Below, piece by piece: positions 22,719 through 48,386 of a stretch of 64,000 nucleotides of DNA; positions within the stretch are counted from its first letter, which is position 1, and the number at the start of each line of letters is the position of its first letter. This DNA is from Endomicrobiales bacterium (lineage in GTDB: Bacteria > Elusimicrobiota > Endomicrobiia > Endomicrobiales > JALOBY01), in assembly GCA_963796955.1 (NCBI GenBank), contig CAWCNJ010000003.1, positions 3,472 to 67,471 on the forward strand. Direction: 5' to 3'. Under the pieces are notes generated by a model that was not told the origin of the DNA, did no database searches, and was given only the letters and a program-made list of their open reading frames with translations. The translations under genes and the position numbers were made by a program.

Positions 22719-22846
22719 CTTAACGCAAACTTCATAGAACGTTTATTTGCCCTTCACTGAGGTTTTATATACTTGCGCCATCACCCTGAAGAAAGGAGGT
22801 GGCCGTCTTAACACGATCTTAACAAAACATTTATACAGGCTTTACG
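22719..22846 (+). promoter_or_regulatory. Two Pho-box-like arrays (11-bp phased TT[ACT]A[CT])
   Basis: TTAAC 22720, TTCAT 22731, TTTAT 22742, TTCAC 22753, TTTAT 22764; then TTAAC 22808, TTAAC 22819, TTTAT 22830, TTTAC 22841; all in one 11-bp register. Confidence 0.78.
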
Positions 22847-22890
22847 TAGGACTGCTAGACTTACCGCAGATAAAACAAGGAGAAGACACT

Positions 22891-24229
22891 ATGAAGAAGC
22901 TGCTCACCGCATTTGCCGCGATAGTATGTATGTCCTCTGTTGCTTTGGCCTCGGAGGTAGAGAGTCTGGTTAACAAACTCGCTGAAAAAGGCGTGATCTC
23001 TTATGGAGAAGCCGCCCAGCTGGTAACTGAATCGAATGAAGACGCGCGGGCCAGCCTTGCATCCGCCTCGGTCTCTACACTGCCCGCCTGGATACAGAAC
23101 ATAACCATGAGCGGCGATCTTCGTCTGCGCTCGCAGGATGACTGGAACGCTGCCAAGAATTTCATCCGCATTCGCGACAGAGTGCGCGTACGGTTGAACT
23201 TCGAAACACGTCTGGCTGAAGGTTATAAAGCGGGTTTTGGTATATCCAACGGCTCCGAGCTGGTGGATGCCAGCGGTGATGAACTTAACACCAATATAAT
23301 AGATGCGAATTCAGGCTCGGCCAACAGCACGTTCACCGGTTTCGGCAGGCTGCCTGTAGAGCTTAACCTTGCATATATTGAGTATTCTCCCGTCATACCC
23401 GGCGTGTCCGCGGCTATAACCGTCGGAAAAATGAAACAGGGTGTGCAGGTTTGGAATGCCACCGATCTGTTGTGGGAATCTTCTCTGAACCCGGACGGCG
23501 CGGCCGTCGGTGTGAACTATAACCTCAACAATGAAATGACACTTGGTTTTATCGGCAGCATCCTCACGATCAATAACCTGAACTCGGCCGTTTCTAATCC
23601 GACCGCAAGCGTAGGCGAAATAACCTACACATGGGATAAGGAAGACTTCAAAGTAAAACTGGGCGTTGCTCAGCAGAAACCTTGACGTTTACGGCAAGAA
23701 CTGCGGTACCTACCTGGGCGACGGAAAGATCGCCGCAGGTGTGCCTTCTATCCTTGACGCTACCGGAGTTGCTACTACCAAGTCTCTTGATTATTTCGTT
23801 ATGAGCGAGAGCTTTGAACTTACCTGGAAGAACGCGTTCGGCGCGAACAATGTCGCGCTTATCGGCGATATGGCAGCCAACTCGTATTCGCCTAACGCCC
23901 CCACGACCATCAGTGACGAGGACGCCAGCTGCTACGGAGTAAAGATCGGCGCAGGCTCGGTCGCCCGTTTAGGCCAGTGGCAGATCATATATCTTAACAG
24001 AACGCTCGGCGGGAATGCCTGGCTTAATAAGCTTGGCGCCAACGATCCCTACGGAGCGGCGCATAACGAGACCGGTTCCCAGGAACAGCTGAGCGTCGGC
24101 CTCAGCAAGGCAATGACCGTTGCATTCACCTATTATTCATACGACTTGCTTGAGAAAACCGCGGCACAGACCGCCGCAGGCAATACCAAACAGGATATAT
24201 TTCAGGCTGACCTGATCTATAAGTTCTAA
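22891..24229 (+). CDS. Putative outer-membrane porin (phosphate-regulated), one frameshift at ~23677
   Basis: Signal peptide MKKLL...ALA, LVNKLAEKGVIS, SGDLRLR, R.R.RVRL, C-terminal QADLIYKF. ORFs 22747-23685 and 23666-24229 join if one A is removed from cagaaacc. Confidence 0.78.
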
Positions 24230-24258
24230 GAACGCAAATTAACCAAGGAGACAAACCA

Positions 24259-45100: not shown

Positions 45101-48100
45101 ATCGTTAACAGGTTCGTTAATAAGAAAAGATATTACCTCGATAGTGCTGCCTTTTGAAGGAAGGGACGGCGCGGCATACGCAGCGGCATTCCACTATCTG
45201 GCCGAGAAATTTCCGGGCCTGAACCGGACCGGGCGCTCGTTGGTGCTGGTTACCGGCAGTAACCCCGGCGATTATGACAATATCGCAGGCTGCCTGACGA
45301 ACGGCTATAAGGCCGCGCACGCACTTGCCGACGAAAAAGACGGCGGCGCCGGCGGCAAAATATTCATCGACGCAGGGCTTAATTATGTGGGGCCGGTCAA
45401 GCGGCACGGGGAAATCACGATGGTAGGTTCGTGGGCCGGCTTTGACCAGGTCCTTGACGAGTCCATGAAGATCGTCCTTTCCGACAACGAGGGGCGGGCG
45501 TTGAAGTTGTATCCTGATATACGGGAAGGAATACAGGATAAACTCGGGCGTCACTTTTTATACGATAAGAACAATACGAAGAAAAGGCAGATCCCGGTAC
45601 TCGGCGGGATCACGCTTTCAAATTCGATTCGGCCGAAAAGGAGGCGCAATTTGTAAAACTCCTTGACGGTGGGCCTCCGGGCTTTAGTATCGCGAGGGAC
45701 ATCATGAGCCCGCTCATCCTGCATAAACGAGAAGGGCGCCGCCGAGATGTTCAAATCTCTCATGCCCAGGAACATCGTCGCGAATAAAACAAAACGTGAC
45801 CTCCATTTCGGTCTTTTTGACGACTATGTCAGGCTGTATGGAGGGGGGTCCCGTATGCCTTTTGAATTCTGTGTTTATATGCCCCATCTCAACGAAACAT
45901 ATATTACCAGGGGCGCCCTGAATGATATAGCCGCTTTGACCGGTTCGGCACAGGCTCCGCTGTCAGCGGCCGGTTATGTAAGTTTCTTGGCTGCGCAGAT
46001 CGCGATGCCTGAAGCGCGCCCCGAGTTGGACGGCATGAGCGTAATGGCGGTATCGTATACCGCCACAAAAGGATTTGAGGATGAGCTCAGTGCACTCTCG
46101 CAGTTGGGCAAAGGCGGGCTGGGCGTAACCATGCGCGGGCGCACTACCGGAACGAAAGGAGATCTCATCACTATCGGCAGAATAGTCGTGCCGGTCGACG
46201 GAGCAAGCGTCAATGTAACCGTCCATGCCGAAATAGTACGCGACGGGACCGGTAAGCAACAGGGGATGCTGTTCCTTGACCCCGATAAAAAACAGATGAC
46301 GCCTGAGGCGCAAAAGATAGCCGACCTGGTCCTCTCCGAAAATATAGAAGCCAGCGGATCGCAGGAACAGGCCGCGATGGCGCTGCTTGGACGGGGAGCG
46401 CTTTCTCTTATCAGAGAATTAAAAGATGGAAGGATGGAGTTCAGGAAGGCCCTGGTAGCAGCCGGGCTACCCGCTGAATCTCTTGACCCGGGGGTTATCC
46501 TGCTCAACGGCGTTGAGGCCGCTTTTACGCTGCCGAACGTGCTGAAAGATGAATATACCGACGATGGCTATCTTAATTCACTCGTGTATCCGTTCATTAC
46601 CGATGATCTGGAAGCCGGAGTTCAGCCCTTTTCGGAGCTGCTTCAGCGTTCGCTCAATCCCCGGCTGAACAGATATTCCGTTGTTGACGACGCAAGGAAA
46701 TACGTTGACCTGATGAAGGCCGCACTGCTGTGTTCGGACACGGTCCTGGCTGTTGCACAAGACAGCGGTCCCGGGACAGGAGTATCCAGATTACAGGCGC
46801 TGAGGGACGTGATACATGTTCTTCCAAAAGAACGTTTGAACGCTGAACTGGGCAGTGTTCTTAATGAATACCTGGCGCATATATGGGGCAGGGAATATGC
46901 GCAAAAACGTGCTCAGTACGGTACATTGCATTCCCCTGCGACGGGTCTGAGCACGTTCGATGCTTCCGGTATAACTCCTTCAGTACGGGTTGGCACCTTC
47001 AGCGAGATCCCGGCGATCGCCCGACGATTTTCAGATGCCGGCATCAATGTCGTGGTCCTGCCCGGATGCCTAGGCGGGCCGGACGAGCCCGACATAAGCC
47101 GTATAGATCTGCCTGAGGAGGCTGGACGGCTTGGAATGGCCGCGGAAGAGATAGATATGATCAGTAACATTTTACCCGATGAAAATGATGATATCAGGGA
47201 CAGTGACGGTTTACTGGAGAACCAGTTCTACATTGGTTTTGAACTGTATCATGCGATGACCGAAAACCCTGAACAAAACAGCCAGTATCGTAACTTTGCC
47301 GGCACGGCTGGCTGGTGGCCGCAGGTTAAACAACGCGCGCGGCTGCTCGCGTTCCAGCGAATGAACGGAGCGCCGCCGGCCGACGCTGTGTCCATCGGTC
47401 AATGGGAGGCGAAACTGGACGGCGAAGGGCGAATGAAGTTTGCAATGTACGCCGCCACGTATGAATATATGCAGTATGTCGCATTTCAGCAGTTGAAAAA
47501 CGCCTTGAGCGCCATACACAGAAATGAACGCGGAATGAAGGTTTTTACCGAACAGGATACGTCTGATGAGAATAGTGTAACGTGGATAAAAATGCTCGGT
47601 TTCGACGGCGGAAAACAACGCCCGCTTATGAGCGTCTCATCGGCTGATGAACTGACGGGCCAGAGAATGGGCGAGGAATCGGATCCCGGTGGAAAATTAT
47701 GGGTCGCGATACGCGGGGATGTTTGCAGGACGGAGGGCTTGTTAACCTCATGCCTGACCAAAATCGCGGAATCAGGAATGAGGCCCCGCGTCAGCTTCGA
47801 CATAAGCTCAGCCGATGTGCTCAGCGTCAATACGCCGGGCGTCCTGGATATCGTCGCGTTCCTGAAGTCAATACCCCTCCCGGCGGCGGCATCCGTTGAC
47901 GGTGAAAGGGCATTCAGCGACGGTTTTGCCCGCGGCAGGGCGATGCCGGTACCGGACGACGGGCTCCAGTTAATTGTGGACGGTGCGGACAAAATACAAA
48001 AGGCCATCGATACGCCGCCAAATAATGAGCAGTACATTTCCGCTGTCTGCGATATTCTCGCCGGGGCGGGGCTCTCCGCAAACGTCATGCCCGCGGCCTG

Positions 48101-48320
48101 GAACGATATCAGGGCTATGAGCCTGAGGGCAAAGTTGTGCCGCACCGGCAATGATCTGCTGACTATGAACGATGAGTTACGGGGCTACCTGCATGGCTAT
48201 TTTGAAAATGCCAGGGAACAATTCAACCTTCTCCAAAGCAGTTCGAGGATACACCGGGAGCATGATGTGCTGACCACGCCGCTCTCGGAGTCTATAATTG
48301 CTATACTGACCAATGGATAA
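30123..48320 (+). CDS. Giant multidomain envelope protein (~6,065 aa), interrupted by two compensating indels at ~45617 and ~45735
   Basis: The 5177-aa and 857-aa ORFs are in the same frame. The intervening 45617-45735 translates in another frame as FKFDSAEKEAQFVKLLDGGPPGFSIARDIMSPLILHKREG, matching the earlier repeat copy FNFGDQQKERDFVALLEQAPKGFSVTKDVFNPLILFKNEG. Confidence 0.85.
36615..39480 (+). repeat. Tandem duplication of a ~478-aa RHS/YD-like unit inside the giant gene
   Basis: Copy 1 from 36615 (VFEVEAVRDVKGRV...FLPGHRPVRFGEEYR...ALDYDTM); copy 2 from 38049 (VHTVETKRDGDGRV...FLPGHRAIAYGEPYR...ALDYATM). Confidence 0.88.
42114..45905 (+). repeat. Tandem duplication of a ~610-aa 2-TM + alpha/beta module inside the giant gene
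   Basis: Copy 1 42114-43962 and copy 2 44091-45905 share SGY.LP..S..ER, LGN.I.P.LY..P, AYAAAFH.LA, NGYKAA.A.A..KD, IT.VGSWA..DQV, KKRQ.PVL.GITL, VY.PHL.ETY. Confidence 0.9.
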
Positions 48321-48332
48321 GCCGTAAGAATG

Positions 48333-48386
48333 TTCATACTGCCTTAACTCTGAGTTAATACAGTCTTGATAATGCATTGGTATAAT
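48333..48386 (+). promoter_or_regulatory. Pho-box-like array plus extended -10 upstream of the second ppk1
   Basis: TTCAT 48333, TTAAC 48344, TTAAT 48355, TTGAT 48366 (11-bp phase), then TGGTATAAT 48378-48386. Confidence 0.72.

What the first reader, a model, noticed from the sequence alone, without database searches (positions are those of the whole stretch)
22719..48386. One 11-bp-phased Pho-box motif at three promoters defines a local regulon bracketing the giant gene
Seen: TT[ACTG]A[CT] half-sites every 11 bp before porin-pst (5+4 sites, both arrays in one register, 22720-22845), before olsBA (3 sites, 28395-28421) and before the second ppk1 (4 sites, 48333-48370, 10 bp before TATAAT). 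Known: PhoB/PhoP bind 11-bp-phased direct repeats, and the Bacillus-type TT(A/T/C)ACA consensus fits better than E. coli CTGTCAT. Inference: olsB-olsA-giant gene may be one phosphate-starvation-induced transcript, since I see no terminator in the 14-bp gap.
Basis: partly seen in the sequence, partly recalled or inferred. Interest (0 to 1): 0.75.

Follow-up and report, generated by a model that had tools for sequence, protein, structure and literature searches.

The report
Phosphate-starvation promoters around a giant gene
Four promoters in this uncultivated Elusimicrobiota genome carry the same phased repeat that phosphate-starvation regulators bind, so phosphate uptake, phosphorus-free lipid synthesis, a polyphosphate kinase and probably a 5177-residue giant protein are switched on together when phosphate runs out.

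Summary
Genome-wide (2.1 Mb, both strands), the only runs of four or more such sites are the two pst arrays and the ppk1-b array.

A promoter model trained only on pst promoters of 16 other genomes of the same order ranks pst P2, pst P1, ppk1-b and olsB as the top four places in this genome. There is a clear gap to the fifth place and to models with distorted spacing. In all four, a -10 hexamer starts exactly 15 nt after the start of the last repeat slot.

- The pst region holds two tandem promoters.
- The olsB box lies in front of, and its -10 inside, a very strong phoU terminator. The ols transcript must therefore start within the hairpin.

The idea that the giant gene belongs to this regulon gains comparative support. 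The four closest homologues found in relatives, plus one further homologue, each have their own four-slot Pho box. One of them is divergent from olsB. Co-transcription itself is unproven, because no RNA data were available.

This is a new member of a known kind (PhoB/PhoP/SphR-type Pho boxes). Giant genes as conserved Pho targets are the new element.

The parts
20310..20987 (+). phoB-like response regulator, the presumed binder of the repeats
   Evidence: Response_reg + Trans_reg_C domains. Best NCBIfam model is PhoB TIGR02154 at 252.6 bits, below its 296.2 cut-off. It is one of only 3 Trans_reg_C regulators found in the assembly.
20984..22714 (+). phoR-like sensor kinase
   Evidence: sCache-like, HAMP, HisKA and HATPase_c domains. 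Best NCBIfam models are PnpS, WalK and PhoR, all below their cut-offs.
   Evidence: 4 of 4 slots, -10 at +15. Score 35.4, second best in the genome under the model trained on relatives.
22808..22861 (+). pst P2: four repeat slots (22808, 22819, 22830, 22841) and -10 TAGACT at 22856-22861; porin ATG at 22891
   Evidence: Score 38.7, best in the genome. Exact match to the conserved three-slot pattern.
22891..28398 (+). porin-pstS-pstC-pstA-pstB-phoU operon (porin, pstS and pstC reading frames are interrupted in this assembly)
   Evidence: Pfam and NCBIfam. Frame breaks seen. pstS is 240 aa here, against open frames of about 270-295 aa around the close pstS matches in relatives.
28395..28448 (+). 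ols promoter: slots at 28395, 28406 and 28417, a degenerate fourth slot at 28428, and -10 TATACT at 28443-28448
   Evidence: 3 of 4 slots, -10 at +15. Score 19.9, fourth in the genome, above every distorted-period maximum (16.1 or less). It is one of only two places in the genome matching the conserved 17-base pattern with at most 1 mismatch.
28427..28479 (+). intrinsic terminator of the pst-phoU operon (20-bp stem, 8-nt loop, T run), overlapping the ols -10
   Evidence: RNA fold -43.6 kcal/mol, z -9.5. RNA starting at 28454 has no significant structure (z +1.4).
28496..30108 (+). olsB (28496-29341) and olsA (29269-30108), ornithine-lipid acyltransferases
   Evidence: Acetyltransf_5 and Acyltransferase domains. 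Best NCBIfam models are OlsB and OlsA, below their cut-offs.
30123..45656 (+). giant gene (5177 aa), 14 nt after olsA, with no terminator and no consensus promoter in between
   Evidence: No Pfam family reaches its curated cut-off; one weak sub-cut-off hit to 8xMP. Belongs to a multi-copy family. The closest homologues found in relatives carry Pho boxes.
45747..48320 (+). 857-aa ORF of no known family, conserved partner downstream of the giant gene
   Evidence: 39% identity over 433 aa (E 4e-104) to the protein that follows the giant homologue in relative G003. No Pfam or NCBIfam hit.
48333..48386 (+). ppk1-b promoter: four slots (48333, 48344, 48355, 48366) and -10 TATAAT at 48381-48386
   Evidence: 4 of 4 slots, +15. 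Score 21.5, third in the genome. Best non-pst hit of a model built from the pst sites alone. Arrays are conserved before orthologues.
48393..50564 (+). ppk1-b (polyphosphate kinase 1, second copy); its ATG lies 6 nt after the -10, so the mRNA is probably leaderless
   Evidence: All four PPK domains. The start codon aligns with the orthologues' M1.

Best explanation
These are Pho boxes, the operators of the PhoB-like response regulator encoded at 20310-20987.

**Inferred mechanism (from the PhoB/PhoP/SphR paradigm).** Under phosphate limitation PhoR phosphorylates PhoB. PhoB dimers then bind head-to-tail to four consecutive 11-bp repeat units. The conserved slot pattern is TTAACA, TTAACA, TTTAT, TTAAY. 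These units take the place of a -35 element and recruit RNA polymerase to a -10 hexamer that starts 15 nt after the start of the last unit.

**The four promoters of this build.**
- Two tandem promoters lie in front of porin-pstSCAB-phoU.
- One lies in front of olsBA. Its -10 sits in the 5' arm and loop of the phoU terminator. The ols transcript therefore starts inside the hairpin and escapes termination, while pst transcripts stop there.
- One lies in front of ppk1-b, whose ATG follows the -10 by 6 nt.

**Shown here:** the sites, their phasing, their genome-wide uniqueness, their conservation and their fixed geometry.

**Inferred:** the identity of the binding protein, the phosphate dependence and the transcription start sites.

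**Sub-claim odds.** pst and ppk1-b boxes functional, about 0.9. ols box functional, about 0.75. Giant gene (and perhaps the 857-aa gene) transcribed from the ols promoter and so phosphate-starvation-induced, about 0.55.
For: **Chance excluded.**
- 8 triple matches in the window against 0.01 expected.
- The only three runs of 4 or more in the genome at period 11 are pst, pst and ppk.

**Composite test** (at least 3 of 4 slots, plus TAnnnT 13-16 nt after the last slot).
- Period 11 gives 8 hits. Periods 7-15 other than 11 give 0-4.
- All 8 hits have offset exactly 15, are intergenic and point at a gene.
The other four are TTCACA-type.

**Independent model.**
- 31 informative columns were taken from 16 pst promoters of other genomes.
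- The scan of this genome gives 38.7, 35.4, 21.5 and 19.9 for pst P2, pst P1, ppk and ols.
- The fifth hit scores 12.3, and distorted periods reach 16.1 at most.

**Leave-out model.** A matrix built from the pst sites alone ranks ppk first among non-pst places.

**Conservation.**
- 16 of 20 relatives, in all nine families sampled, carry one such promoter upstream of porin-pst.
- The ppk1-b orthologues of four Endomicrobia-type genomes carry 2-4 phased sites. A -10 at +15 from the last site was located in three of them.
- The three-slot pattern with at most 1 mismatch gives 53 matches in 41 genomes, against 16 for the backwards control. It matches only pst P2 and ols in this genome.

**Targets in relatives make a coherent Pho regulon.** They are ppx-ppk1, Porin_5+PHO4, GT21 and GT4 glycosyltransferases, and olsBA.

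**Regulator.** PhoB and PhoR are encoded next to pst. Only three OmpR-type regulators are found in the assembly.

**Terminator.**

**Giant gene.**
- Of 11 loci holding the best N-terminal homologue of each of 11 relatives, the four best-scoring (G003, G013, G008, G016) have a composite Pho promoter directly upstream on the gene's strand.
- A fifth, in G004, has a 4-of-4 box divergent from a boxed ppx-ppk1.
- In G003 the box pair is shared with olsB.
- No consensus sigma-70 promoter is found on the + strand between 28496 and 30123.
Against: - There is no expression or binding data. No sequencing run could be listed.
- A bare 3-site run like the ols one is no more frequent at period 11 than at other periods (7 against 1-11). 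Its fourth slot is degenerate.
- With a matrix that keeps the AT-rich spacer columns of the relatives, ols-level scores are also reached at control periods.
- olsB of relative G002 has no box. By eye it has a TTGACA-17-TAAAAT promoter instead, so Pho control of ols is not universal.
- Seven of the 11 giant-homologue loci have no box. Several giant paralogues in this genome sit behind a different motif.
- The PhoB and PhoR scores are below NCBIfam's equivalog cut-offs.
- The relatives are kin, so the counts overstate independence.
- The genome is 81% complete, so the word 'local' may reflect missing sequence.
- Three genes of the pst operon have interrupted frames in this assembly.
Confidence: 0.8

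Rival explanations
1. The pst and ppk1-b arrays are real Pho boxes, but the three ols sites are a chance AT-rich stretch after the phoU stop codon. On this reading olsBA and the giant gene are driven by terminator read-through or by an unrecognised, phosphate-independent promoter.
For: - 3-runs are not enriched at period 11.
- The fourth slot is degenerate.
- The first site overlaps the phoU stop codon.
- The ols score is not exceptional under an AT-biased matrix.
- G002 olsB lacks a box.
Against: - The ols site is fourth genome-wide under the model trained on relatives, above all distorted-period maxima.
- It reproduces the slot-specific order TTAAY-A, TTAACA, TTTAT.
- It is one of two genome matches to the conserved pattern, with 0 control matches.
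- Its -10 sits at exactly +15 from the fourth slot, as at the other promoters.
- olsB operons of G003 and G005 have 4-of-4 boxes.
- The terminator is very stable at -43.6 kcal/mol, which makes read-through an unlikely main route.
Confidence: 0.2
2. The ols promoter is Pho-controlled, but the giant gene is a separate unit. On this reading it has its own start site inside or after olsA, and its adjacency to olsBA is incidental.
For: - The giant gene's own homologues elsewhere have dedicated promoters directly upstream.
- The olsBA-giant order is not conserved: it is divergent in G003 and absent in G002 and G005.
- There is no Shine-Dalgarno sequence before 30123.
- Giant paralogues in this genome use another motif.
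Against: - The gap is 14 nt with no terminator.
- No sigma-70-like or repeat-type promoter is found on the + strand within olsBA.
- The homologous group is Pho-boxed in five relatives. Loss of its own box fits capture by the ols promoter.
Confidence: 0.35
3. The repeats are bound by a different OmpR-family regulator, either the KdpE-like one at 55388 or the one on contig C5, and they answer to a signal other than phosphate.
For: OmpR-family proteins generally bind 10-11-bp direct repeats. Two further such regulators exist in the genome. PhoB is below its equivalog cut-off.
Against: - The target set across the order is the classic Pho set: pst, PiT, ppx/ppk and P-free lipid genes.
- phoBR lies immediately upstream of the boxes.
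- The KdpE-like gene lies with the kdp genes.
- A separate TTCACA repeat motif exists that could serve the third regulator.
Confidence: 0.05

Closest known systems
Escherichia coli PhoB Pho box
   Same: Tandem direct repeats with an 11-bp period replace the -35 element and lie about 10 bp upstream of a TAN3T-type -10. They control pst and polyphosphate genes. (Passages of PMC1906773, and PMC4415409.)
   Different: The core sequence is TTAACA/TTTAT, not CTGTCAT. No CTGTCAT-type box sits at any of these promoters. Four repeat units are the rule here rather than two.
Cyanobacterial SphR Pho box (CTTAACCT, 8 bp + 3-bp linker, at least three repeats)
   Same: The core (C)TTAAC is nearly identical, the period is 11 bp and three or more tandem units are needed. 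(Passage of PMC1906773, compared with the consensus.)
   Different: The phylum is different. Here the third slot is conserved as TTTAT, and the distance to the -10 is fixed at 15 nt from the start of the last slot.
Bacillus subtilis PhoP TT(A/T/C)ACA repeats
   Different: This consensus is recalled, not checked. No listed paper held the word TTAACA. The organism here is a diderm, with a porin gene in the operon.
Pho-box-controlled olsB and glycolipid genes of alpha- and beta-proteobacteria
   Same: Ornithine-lipid synthesis (olsB) and glycolipid glycosyltransferases are preceded by Pho boxes and induced at low phosphate. (Passages of PMC7814305.)
   Different: The box sequence is different. 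Here the ols promoter is nested in the terminator of pst-phoU, and the operon appears to continue into a giant gene.
Streptomyces PhoP 11-nt direct repeat units
   Same: Operators are built from variable numbers of 11-nt units. (Abstract of PMC2275107 in the listing; passages of PMC4415409.)
   Different: The Streptomyces core is GTTCACC and lies in a high-GC genome.

Membership tests
Pho box (operator of a PhoB/PhoP/SphR-type regulator) | Two or more direct repeats with 11-bp periodicity | tested here: met
   4-5, 4, 3 and 4 exact-phase sites at the four promoters. Period 11 stands out against periods 6-16 for runs of 4 or more.
Pho box (operator of a PhoB/PhoP/SphR-type regulator) | Repeats replace the -35 element at a fixed short distance from a -10 hexamer | tested here: met
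   TAnnnT starts exactly 15 nt after the start of the last slot in all 4 promoters here and in 16 of 16 relatives' pst promoters.
Pho box (operator of a PhoB/PhoP/SphR-type regulator) | Found upstream of pstSCAB-phoU and other phosphate genes, and conserved in related genomes | tested here: met
   16 of 20 relatives. Other targets are ppx-ppk1, PiT, ppk1-b, ols and glycosyltransferases. The model trained on relatives recovers the four sites.
Pho box (operator of a PhoB/PhoP/SphR-type regulator) | A cognate PhoB/PhoR two-component pair is encoded | tested here: inconclusive
   Domain architecture and position next to pst fit. PhoB TIGR02154 scores 252.6 bits against a 296.2 cut-off, and the PhoR models are below their cut-offs.
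Pho box (operator of a PhoB/PhoP/SphR-type regulator) | Bound by the phosphorylated regulator; transcription induced by phosphate limitation | not testable with these tools
   No RNA or DNA run was listed for the stretch. Binding needs EMSA or footprinting.
E. coli-type Pho box consensus (CTGTCAT-N4-CTGTCAT) | Sequence match to the enterobacterial consensus at the promoters | tested here: not met
   9 matches with 3 mismatches in the window, none inside the four promoter stretches.
OlsBA ornithine-lipid pathway | An OlsB N-acyltransferase and an OlsA O-acyltransferase encoded together | tested here: inconclusive
   Acetyltransf_5 and Acyltransferase domains. The best NCBIfam models are OlsB and OlsA, at about 108 bits against cut-offs of 300-350. 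The lipid product was not tested.
Single olsB-olsA-giant transcription unit | Same strand, short gap, no terminator or promoter between the genes | tested here: met
   14-nt gap. No terminator-like or promoter-like site on the + strand in or before the gap.
Single olsB-olsA-giant transcription unit | One continuous RNA across the junctions | not testable with these tools
   No sequencing run was listed.

The most novel reading that the evidence does not exclude
A subfamily of giant proteins (about 3,700-6,800 residues) may be a conserved member of the phosphate-starvation regulon across this order of Elusimicrobiota.

- The proteins share an N-terminal membrane-anchor-like segment and a roughly 500-residue domain of no known family.
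- In this genome the gene has been captured into an operon with the phosphorus-free-lipid genes olsBA.
- It keeps a conserved downstream partner. In a relative that partner carries glycogen-debranching and glucanotransferase domains.
- Relatives of the giant protein carry fused phosphoglucomutase, phosphoglycerate kinase and phosphoglucose isomerase domains.

If so, these giant proteins would be part of envelope or storage-polymer remodelling under phosphate limitation. That would give the first physiological handle on a giant-gene family in an uncultivated lineage.
Probability: 0.5. Interest if true: 0.7.

Novelty: new member of a known kind. Interest (0 to 1): 0.5.

Why it matters
Pho boxes themselves are textbook. 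Three things are added here.

- **A defined operator for an uncultivated lineage.** The operator is defined and conservation-tested for Elusimicrobiota of the Endomicrobia type: its slot pattern, the fixed +15 geometry and a leaderless target. A search for 'Pho box' together with 'Elusimicrobia' found no paper. Regulon prediction in these genomes can now be done.

- **A compact promoter-in-terminator arrangement.** It separates the pst and ols transcripts.

- **Evidence that one subfamily of giant genes is a recurrent Pho target.** Giant genes in candidate phyla have almost no functional context. A predicted inducing condition, low phosphate, makes their expression and role directly testable in enrichments or metatranscriptomes.

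Tried and rejected
- **Sequencing runs** for 22000-31000: none was listed, so there was no RNA test.
- **The search for related loci with OlsB** in named genomes: 73 pattern matches, none confirmed.
- **A unit matrix keeping the relatives' AT-rich spacer columns** did not discriminate. Control periods reached equal scores. It was replaced by informative columns only.
- **The dnaA-dnaN intergenic array** (best hit of that AT-biased matrix) was not accepted as a Pho promoter. 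It has no -10 at +13 to +16.
- **Other promoters in the window.** By eye, no full four-slot array was seen upstream of phoB, ppx-ppk1-a, the 857-aa gene or pstS2. phoB has a sigma-70-like promoter.
- **Protein atlas.** The giant N-terminus matched only unnamed clusters. The 857-aa protein had no usable hit.
- **Foldseek against PDB** for the giant N-terminal model: nothing at E 0.001 or better.
- **Earlier findings of this scan:** nothing returned.
- **The small genes behind the TTCACA promoters** are not homologous to each other.

Full report
**Observation**

- 22720/31/42/53/64 and 22808/19/30/41, with 88 = 8 x 11 bp between the two arrays.
- 28395/406/417.
- 48333/44/55/66.

Pfam and NCBIfam confirm the gene map:
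- ppx, ppk1-a, a CHAD protein, a ROK kinase and phoB-phoR.
- A Porin_5 porin, pstS, pstC, pstA, pstB and phoU.
- olsB, olsA, a 5177-aa ORF and an 857-aa ORF of no family.
- ppk1-b and a CYTH protein.

Record titles of the ppk1-b orthologues place the lineage among Endomicrobia-type Elusimicrobiota.

**Is it more than chance?**

Three consecutive TTNAY words at period 11 occur 8 times in the window, all on the + strand at the four places. The expectation from 100 dinucleotide shuffles is 0.01.

In the whole 2.10-Mb assembly, both strands, period 11 gives seven runs of 3, two of 4 and one of 5. The three runs of 4 or more are the two pst arrays and ppk. Periods 6-16 other than 11 give at most one run of 4 or more, and 1-11 runs of 3. 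So the long arrays are unique, but a bare 3-run like ols is not.

A composite test asked for at least 3 of 4 slots plus TAnnnT 13-16 nt after the last slot.
- Period 11 gives 8 places. Periods 7-15 other than 11 give 0-4.
- All 8 have the -10 at exactly +15, are intergenic and face a gene.
The other four have TTCACA cores.

**An independent model**

I fetched 3 kb upstream of pstS from 20 relatives. Sixteen hold exactly one composite hit, always at +15. Six control periods together give one hit. The 16 cover all nine families represented. G012, G013, G017 and G023 had none in the stretch examined, although G012 and G013 have one-mismatch pattern matches nearby.

The 31 informative columns of these 16 promoters give this slot pattern: TTAACA, TTAACA, TTTAT, (C)TTAAT, then TTT, two bases and TAnnAT.

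Scanning this genome with that matrix, which contains no sequence of this genome, gives:

| Place | Score |
|---|---|
| pst P2 | 38.7 |
| pst P1 | 35.4 |
| ppk1-b | 21.5 |
| ols | 19.9 |
| fifth place | 12.3 |

With the slots squeezed or stretched to periods 9, 10, 12 or 13, the maxima are 12.4, 16.1, 16.1 and 6.1.

A matrix made from the pst sites alone ranks ppk first among non-pst places for three and four units. It ranks ols lower.

The three-slot pattern with at most one mismatch matches only pst P2 and ols in this genome, with no backwards-control match. Over the 41 genomes it gives 53 matches against 16 for the control.

A matrix that kept the relatives' AT-rich spacers was not discriminating.

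**Anatomy**

- **pst P1:** slots at 22720-22763 and TATACT at 22768.
- **pst P2:** slots at 22808-22851 and TAGACT at 22856. The porin ATG is at 22891.
- **ols:** slots at 28395, 28406 and 28417, a degenerate slot at 28428 and TATACT at 28443.
- **ppk1-b:** slots at 48333-48376 and TATAAT at 48381. The ATG at 48393 aligns with the first residue of two orthologues. That leaves 6 nt after the -10, a leaderless arrangement. The giant homologue of G008 shows the same arrangement.

No CTGTCAT-type box lies at these promoters, and Rfam finds no RNA family there.

Positions 28427-28474 form a 20-bp stem followed by a T run. The fold is -43.6 kcal/mol, with z -9.5. The ols slots lie upstream of it, and the -10 lies in its 5' arm and loop.

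A transcript starting about 7 nt after the -10, near 28455, would contain only the 3' arm. It has no significant structure. It is followed by AGGAGG and the olsB ATG at 28496.

This reading lets pst transcripts end and ols transcripts begin within the same 97-nt spacer. It is inferred, not shown.

**The regulator**

The protein at 20310 has receiver and winged-helix domains. Its best NCBIfam model is PhoB, but below the cut-off. Its best full-length solved relatives include RegX3 and BaeR.

Only three Trans_reg_C regulators are found in the assembly. The other two are a KdpE-like one beside the kdp genes and one on contig C5 beside a kinase and a sigma factor.

**The regulon in relatives**

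- **ppk1-b orthologues.** They exist in few relatives. The four Endomicrobia-type loci carry 2, 3, 3 and 2+2 (with one-base jitter) phased sites. In three of these a -10 at +15 from the last site was located by hand. The locus with only 2 sites was not resolved. Three more distant orthologues (51-53% identity) carry none.
- **olsB.** It was found in G002, G003 and G005 among 40 relatives.
  - G003 has a 4-of-4 box before olsB.
  - G005 has a 4-of-4 box with TATACT at +15 before a GT4 glycosyltransferase that directly precedes olsB-olsA.
  - G002 has none. By eye it has a sigma-70-type promoter.
- **Other boxed genes.**
  - GT21 glycosyltransferases in G003 and G004.
  - ppx-ppk1 in G003 and G004.
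  - A porin plus a PHO4-family transporter in G012.

This is a coherent phosphate-starvation set. It parallels the Pho-box control of olsB and glycolipid genes described for proteobacteria (passages of PMC7814305).

**The giant gene**

Its first ~500 residues define a family found in 34 of 41 genomes of the order, with up to about 20 copies per genome. This genome has seven copies.

Among 11 loci holding the best homologue of each of 11 relatives, the four with the highest scores carry a composite Pho promoter directly upstream on the gene's strand. These are G003 (49% identity), G013 (43%), G008 and G016. The other seven do not.

Further findings:
- G004 has a further boxed copy, divergent from its boxed ppx-ppk1.
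- In G003 the giant gene and olsB are divergent neighbours with back-to-back boxes.
- The gene after the G003 giant is homologous to the window's 857-aa ORF (E 4e-104).

In the window the giant gene follows olsA after 14 nt, with no terminator and no recognisable promoter. The simplest reading is that the homologous group is Pho-controlled throughout, and that here it is served by the ols promoter.

Against this:
- There is no RNA evidence.
- The olsBA-giant order is not conserved.
- Three or four paralogues in this genome sit behind a different TTCACA repeat promoter.

**Comparison with what is known**

The 11-bp unit, the replacement of the -35 and the roughly 10-bp distance to the -10 are those of E. 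coli PhoB (passages of PMC1906773 and PMC4415409). The core is almost that of the cyanobacterial SphR box CTTAACCT, which needs at least three repeats.

It could not be checked in the library.

No paper holds 'Pho box' together with 'Elusimicrobia'.

**Limits**

- The relatives are kin, so the counts overstate independence.
- The assembly is 81% complete, so further boxed promoters may be missing.
- Porin, pstS and pstC have interrupted frames, one of them beside a nine-A run. This may be assembly error or decay.
- Binding, induction and start sites are all inferred.

**Verdict**

The Pho-box interpretation is strongly supported, and the giant-gene inference is plausible with new comparative backing. 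The Pho boxes are a new member of a known kind. The recurrent Pho control of a giant-gene subfamily is the part worth following.

Noticed in passing
Genome contigs outside the window: C4:265120(+), C4:227684(-), C4:199534(-), C5:7276(-), C7:22603(+), C9:89602(+), C11:79739(-): A second direct-repeat motif, TTCACA-N5-TTCACA, occurs exactly 8 times at 7 loci in the genome. All are intergenic and face a gene 28-67 nt away, often with a third TTCAC about 22 nt on and a -10 at +15. It precedes three giant-family paralogues, directly or via a small gene. It also precedes a TolC/HlyD/ABC operon and a cytidylyltransferase-like gene. It is probably the operator of another regulator.
   Followed up: partly
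window 22891-26019: Three genes of the pst operon have interrupted frames. The porin changes frame near 23666-23685. pstS loses its C-terminus near a nine-A run at about 24938-24946, and the true end appears in another frame at about 25069. pstC has an in-frame stop at 25396 and garbled N-terminal frames. dnaA, kdpC and a CHAD/Ppx piece also look truncated, so homopolymer indel errors of the assembly are a likely cause.
   Followed up: partly
window 28427-28479: The ols -10 hexamer lies inside the 5' arm and loop of the pst-phoU terminator. This is a promoter nested in a terminator.
   Followed up: yes
L001 1082-1125 (G000:C5 dnaA-dnaN spacer); L193 and L191 (G003 dnaE and nrdR-RNR upstream): Phased TTAAC arrays without a correctly placed -10 lie between dnaA and dnaN in this genome. 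In G003 they lie upstream of dnaE and nrdR-ribonucleotide reductase. They could be PhoB sites at replication genes or a look-alike operator (DnaA?). This is unexplained.
   Followed up: no
window 30123-31802 and paralogues L209-L214: The giant family shares a conserved N-terminal hydrophobic segment and a ~500-aa domain with invariant motifs. The AlphaFold model (pLDDT 75, pTM 0.70) has no Foldseek match. Its best VIA-align rows are ChaN (Z 8.2), erythromycin esterase EreC (7.8), two 'succinoglycan biosynthesis' proteins (7.3, 7.2) and HopBA1 (6.7). These Z values are in the range the tool calls common, so this is a lead only. My recollection, untested here, is that these entries belong to one fold superfamily.
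   Followed up: partly
proteins P0004, P0005: Giant homologues that share the N-terminal domain carry fused sugar-metabolism enzymes. P0005 (3956 aa) has two phosphoglucomutase sets, phosphoglycerate kinase and phosphoglucose isomerase (verified). P0004 (5212 aa) is listed with GDE_C, GH77 and further families.
   Followed up: partly
window 45747-48320; L140:3770-7366(-): The 857-aa ORF after the giant gene is homologous to the first ~800 residues of the 1198-aa protein after the G003 giant. The G003 protein additionally has GH77-like and GDE_C (glycogen debranching) domains. The giant-partner pair is thus conserved.
   Followed up: partly
L044 1097-1246(-) (G003); L129 about 3321-3476(-) (G013): A small, very basic ORF of about 50 aa with its own Shine-Dalgarno sequence lies between the Pho box and the giant gene in both G003 and G013. 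It is absent in the window.
   Followed up: no
window 14196-20183 and 50579-51352: The Pho-box promoters sit in a polyphosphate island: ppx, ppk1-a, a CHAD protein, a Ppx domain-III/HD piece, a ROK kinase (possibly a polyphosphate glucokinase) and a CYTH protein after ppk1-b. No repeat array was seen before ppx-ppk1-a here, whereas G003 and G004 have one before theirs.
   Followed up: partly
L139:457-1641 (G003), L195:2557-3720 (G004), L043:2345-3721(-) (G005): Glycosyltransferases of families GT21 and GT4 sit behind 4-of-4 Pho boxes in three relatives, in G005 in one operon with olsBA. They are candidate phosphorus-free glycolipid synthases.
   Followed up: partly
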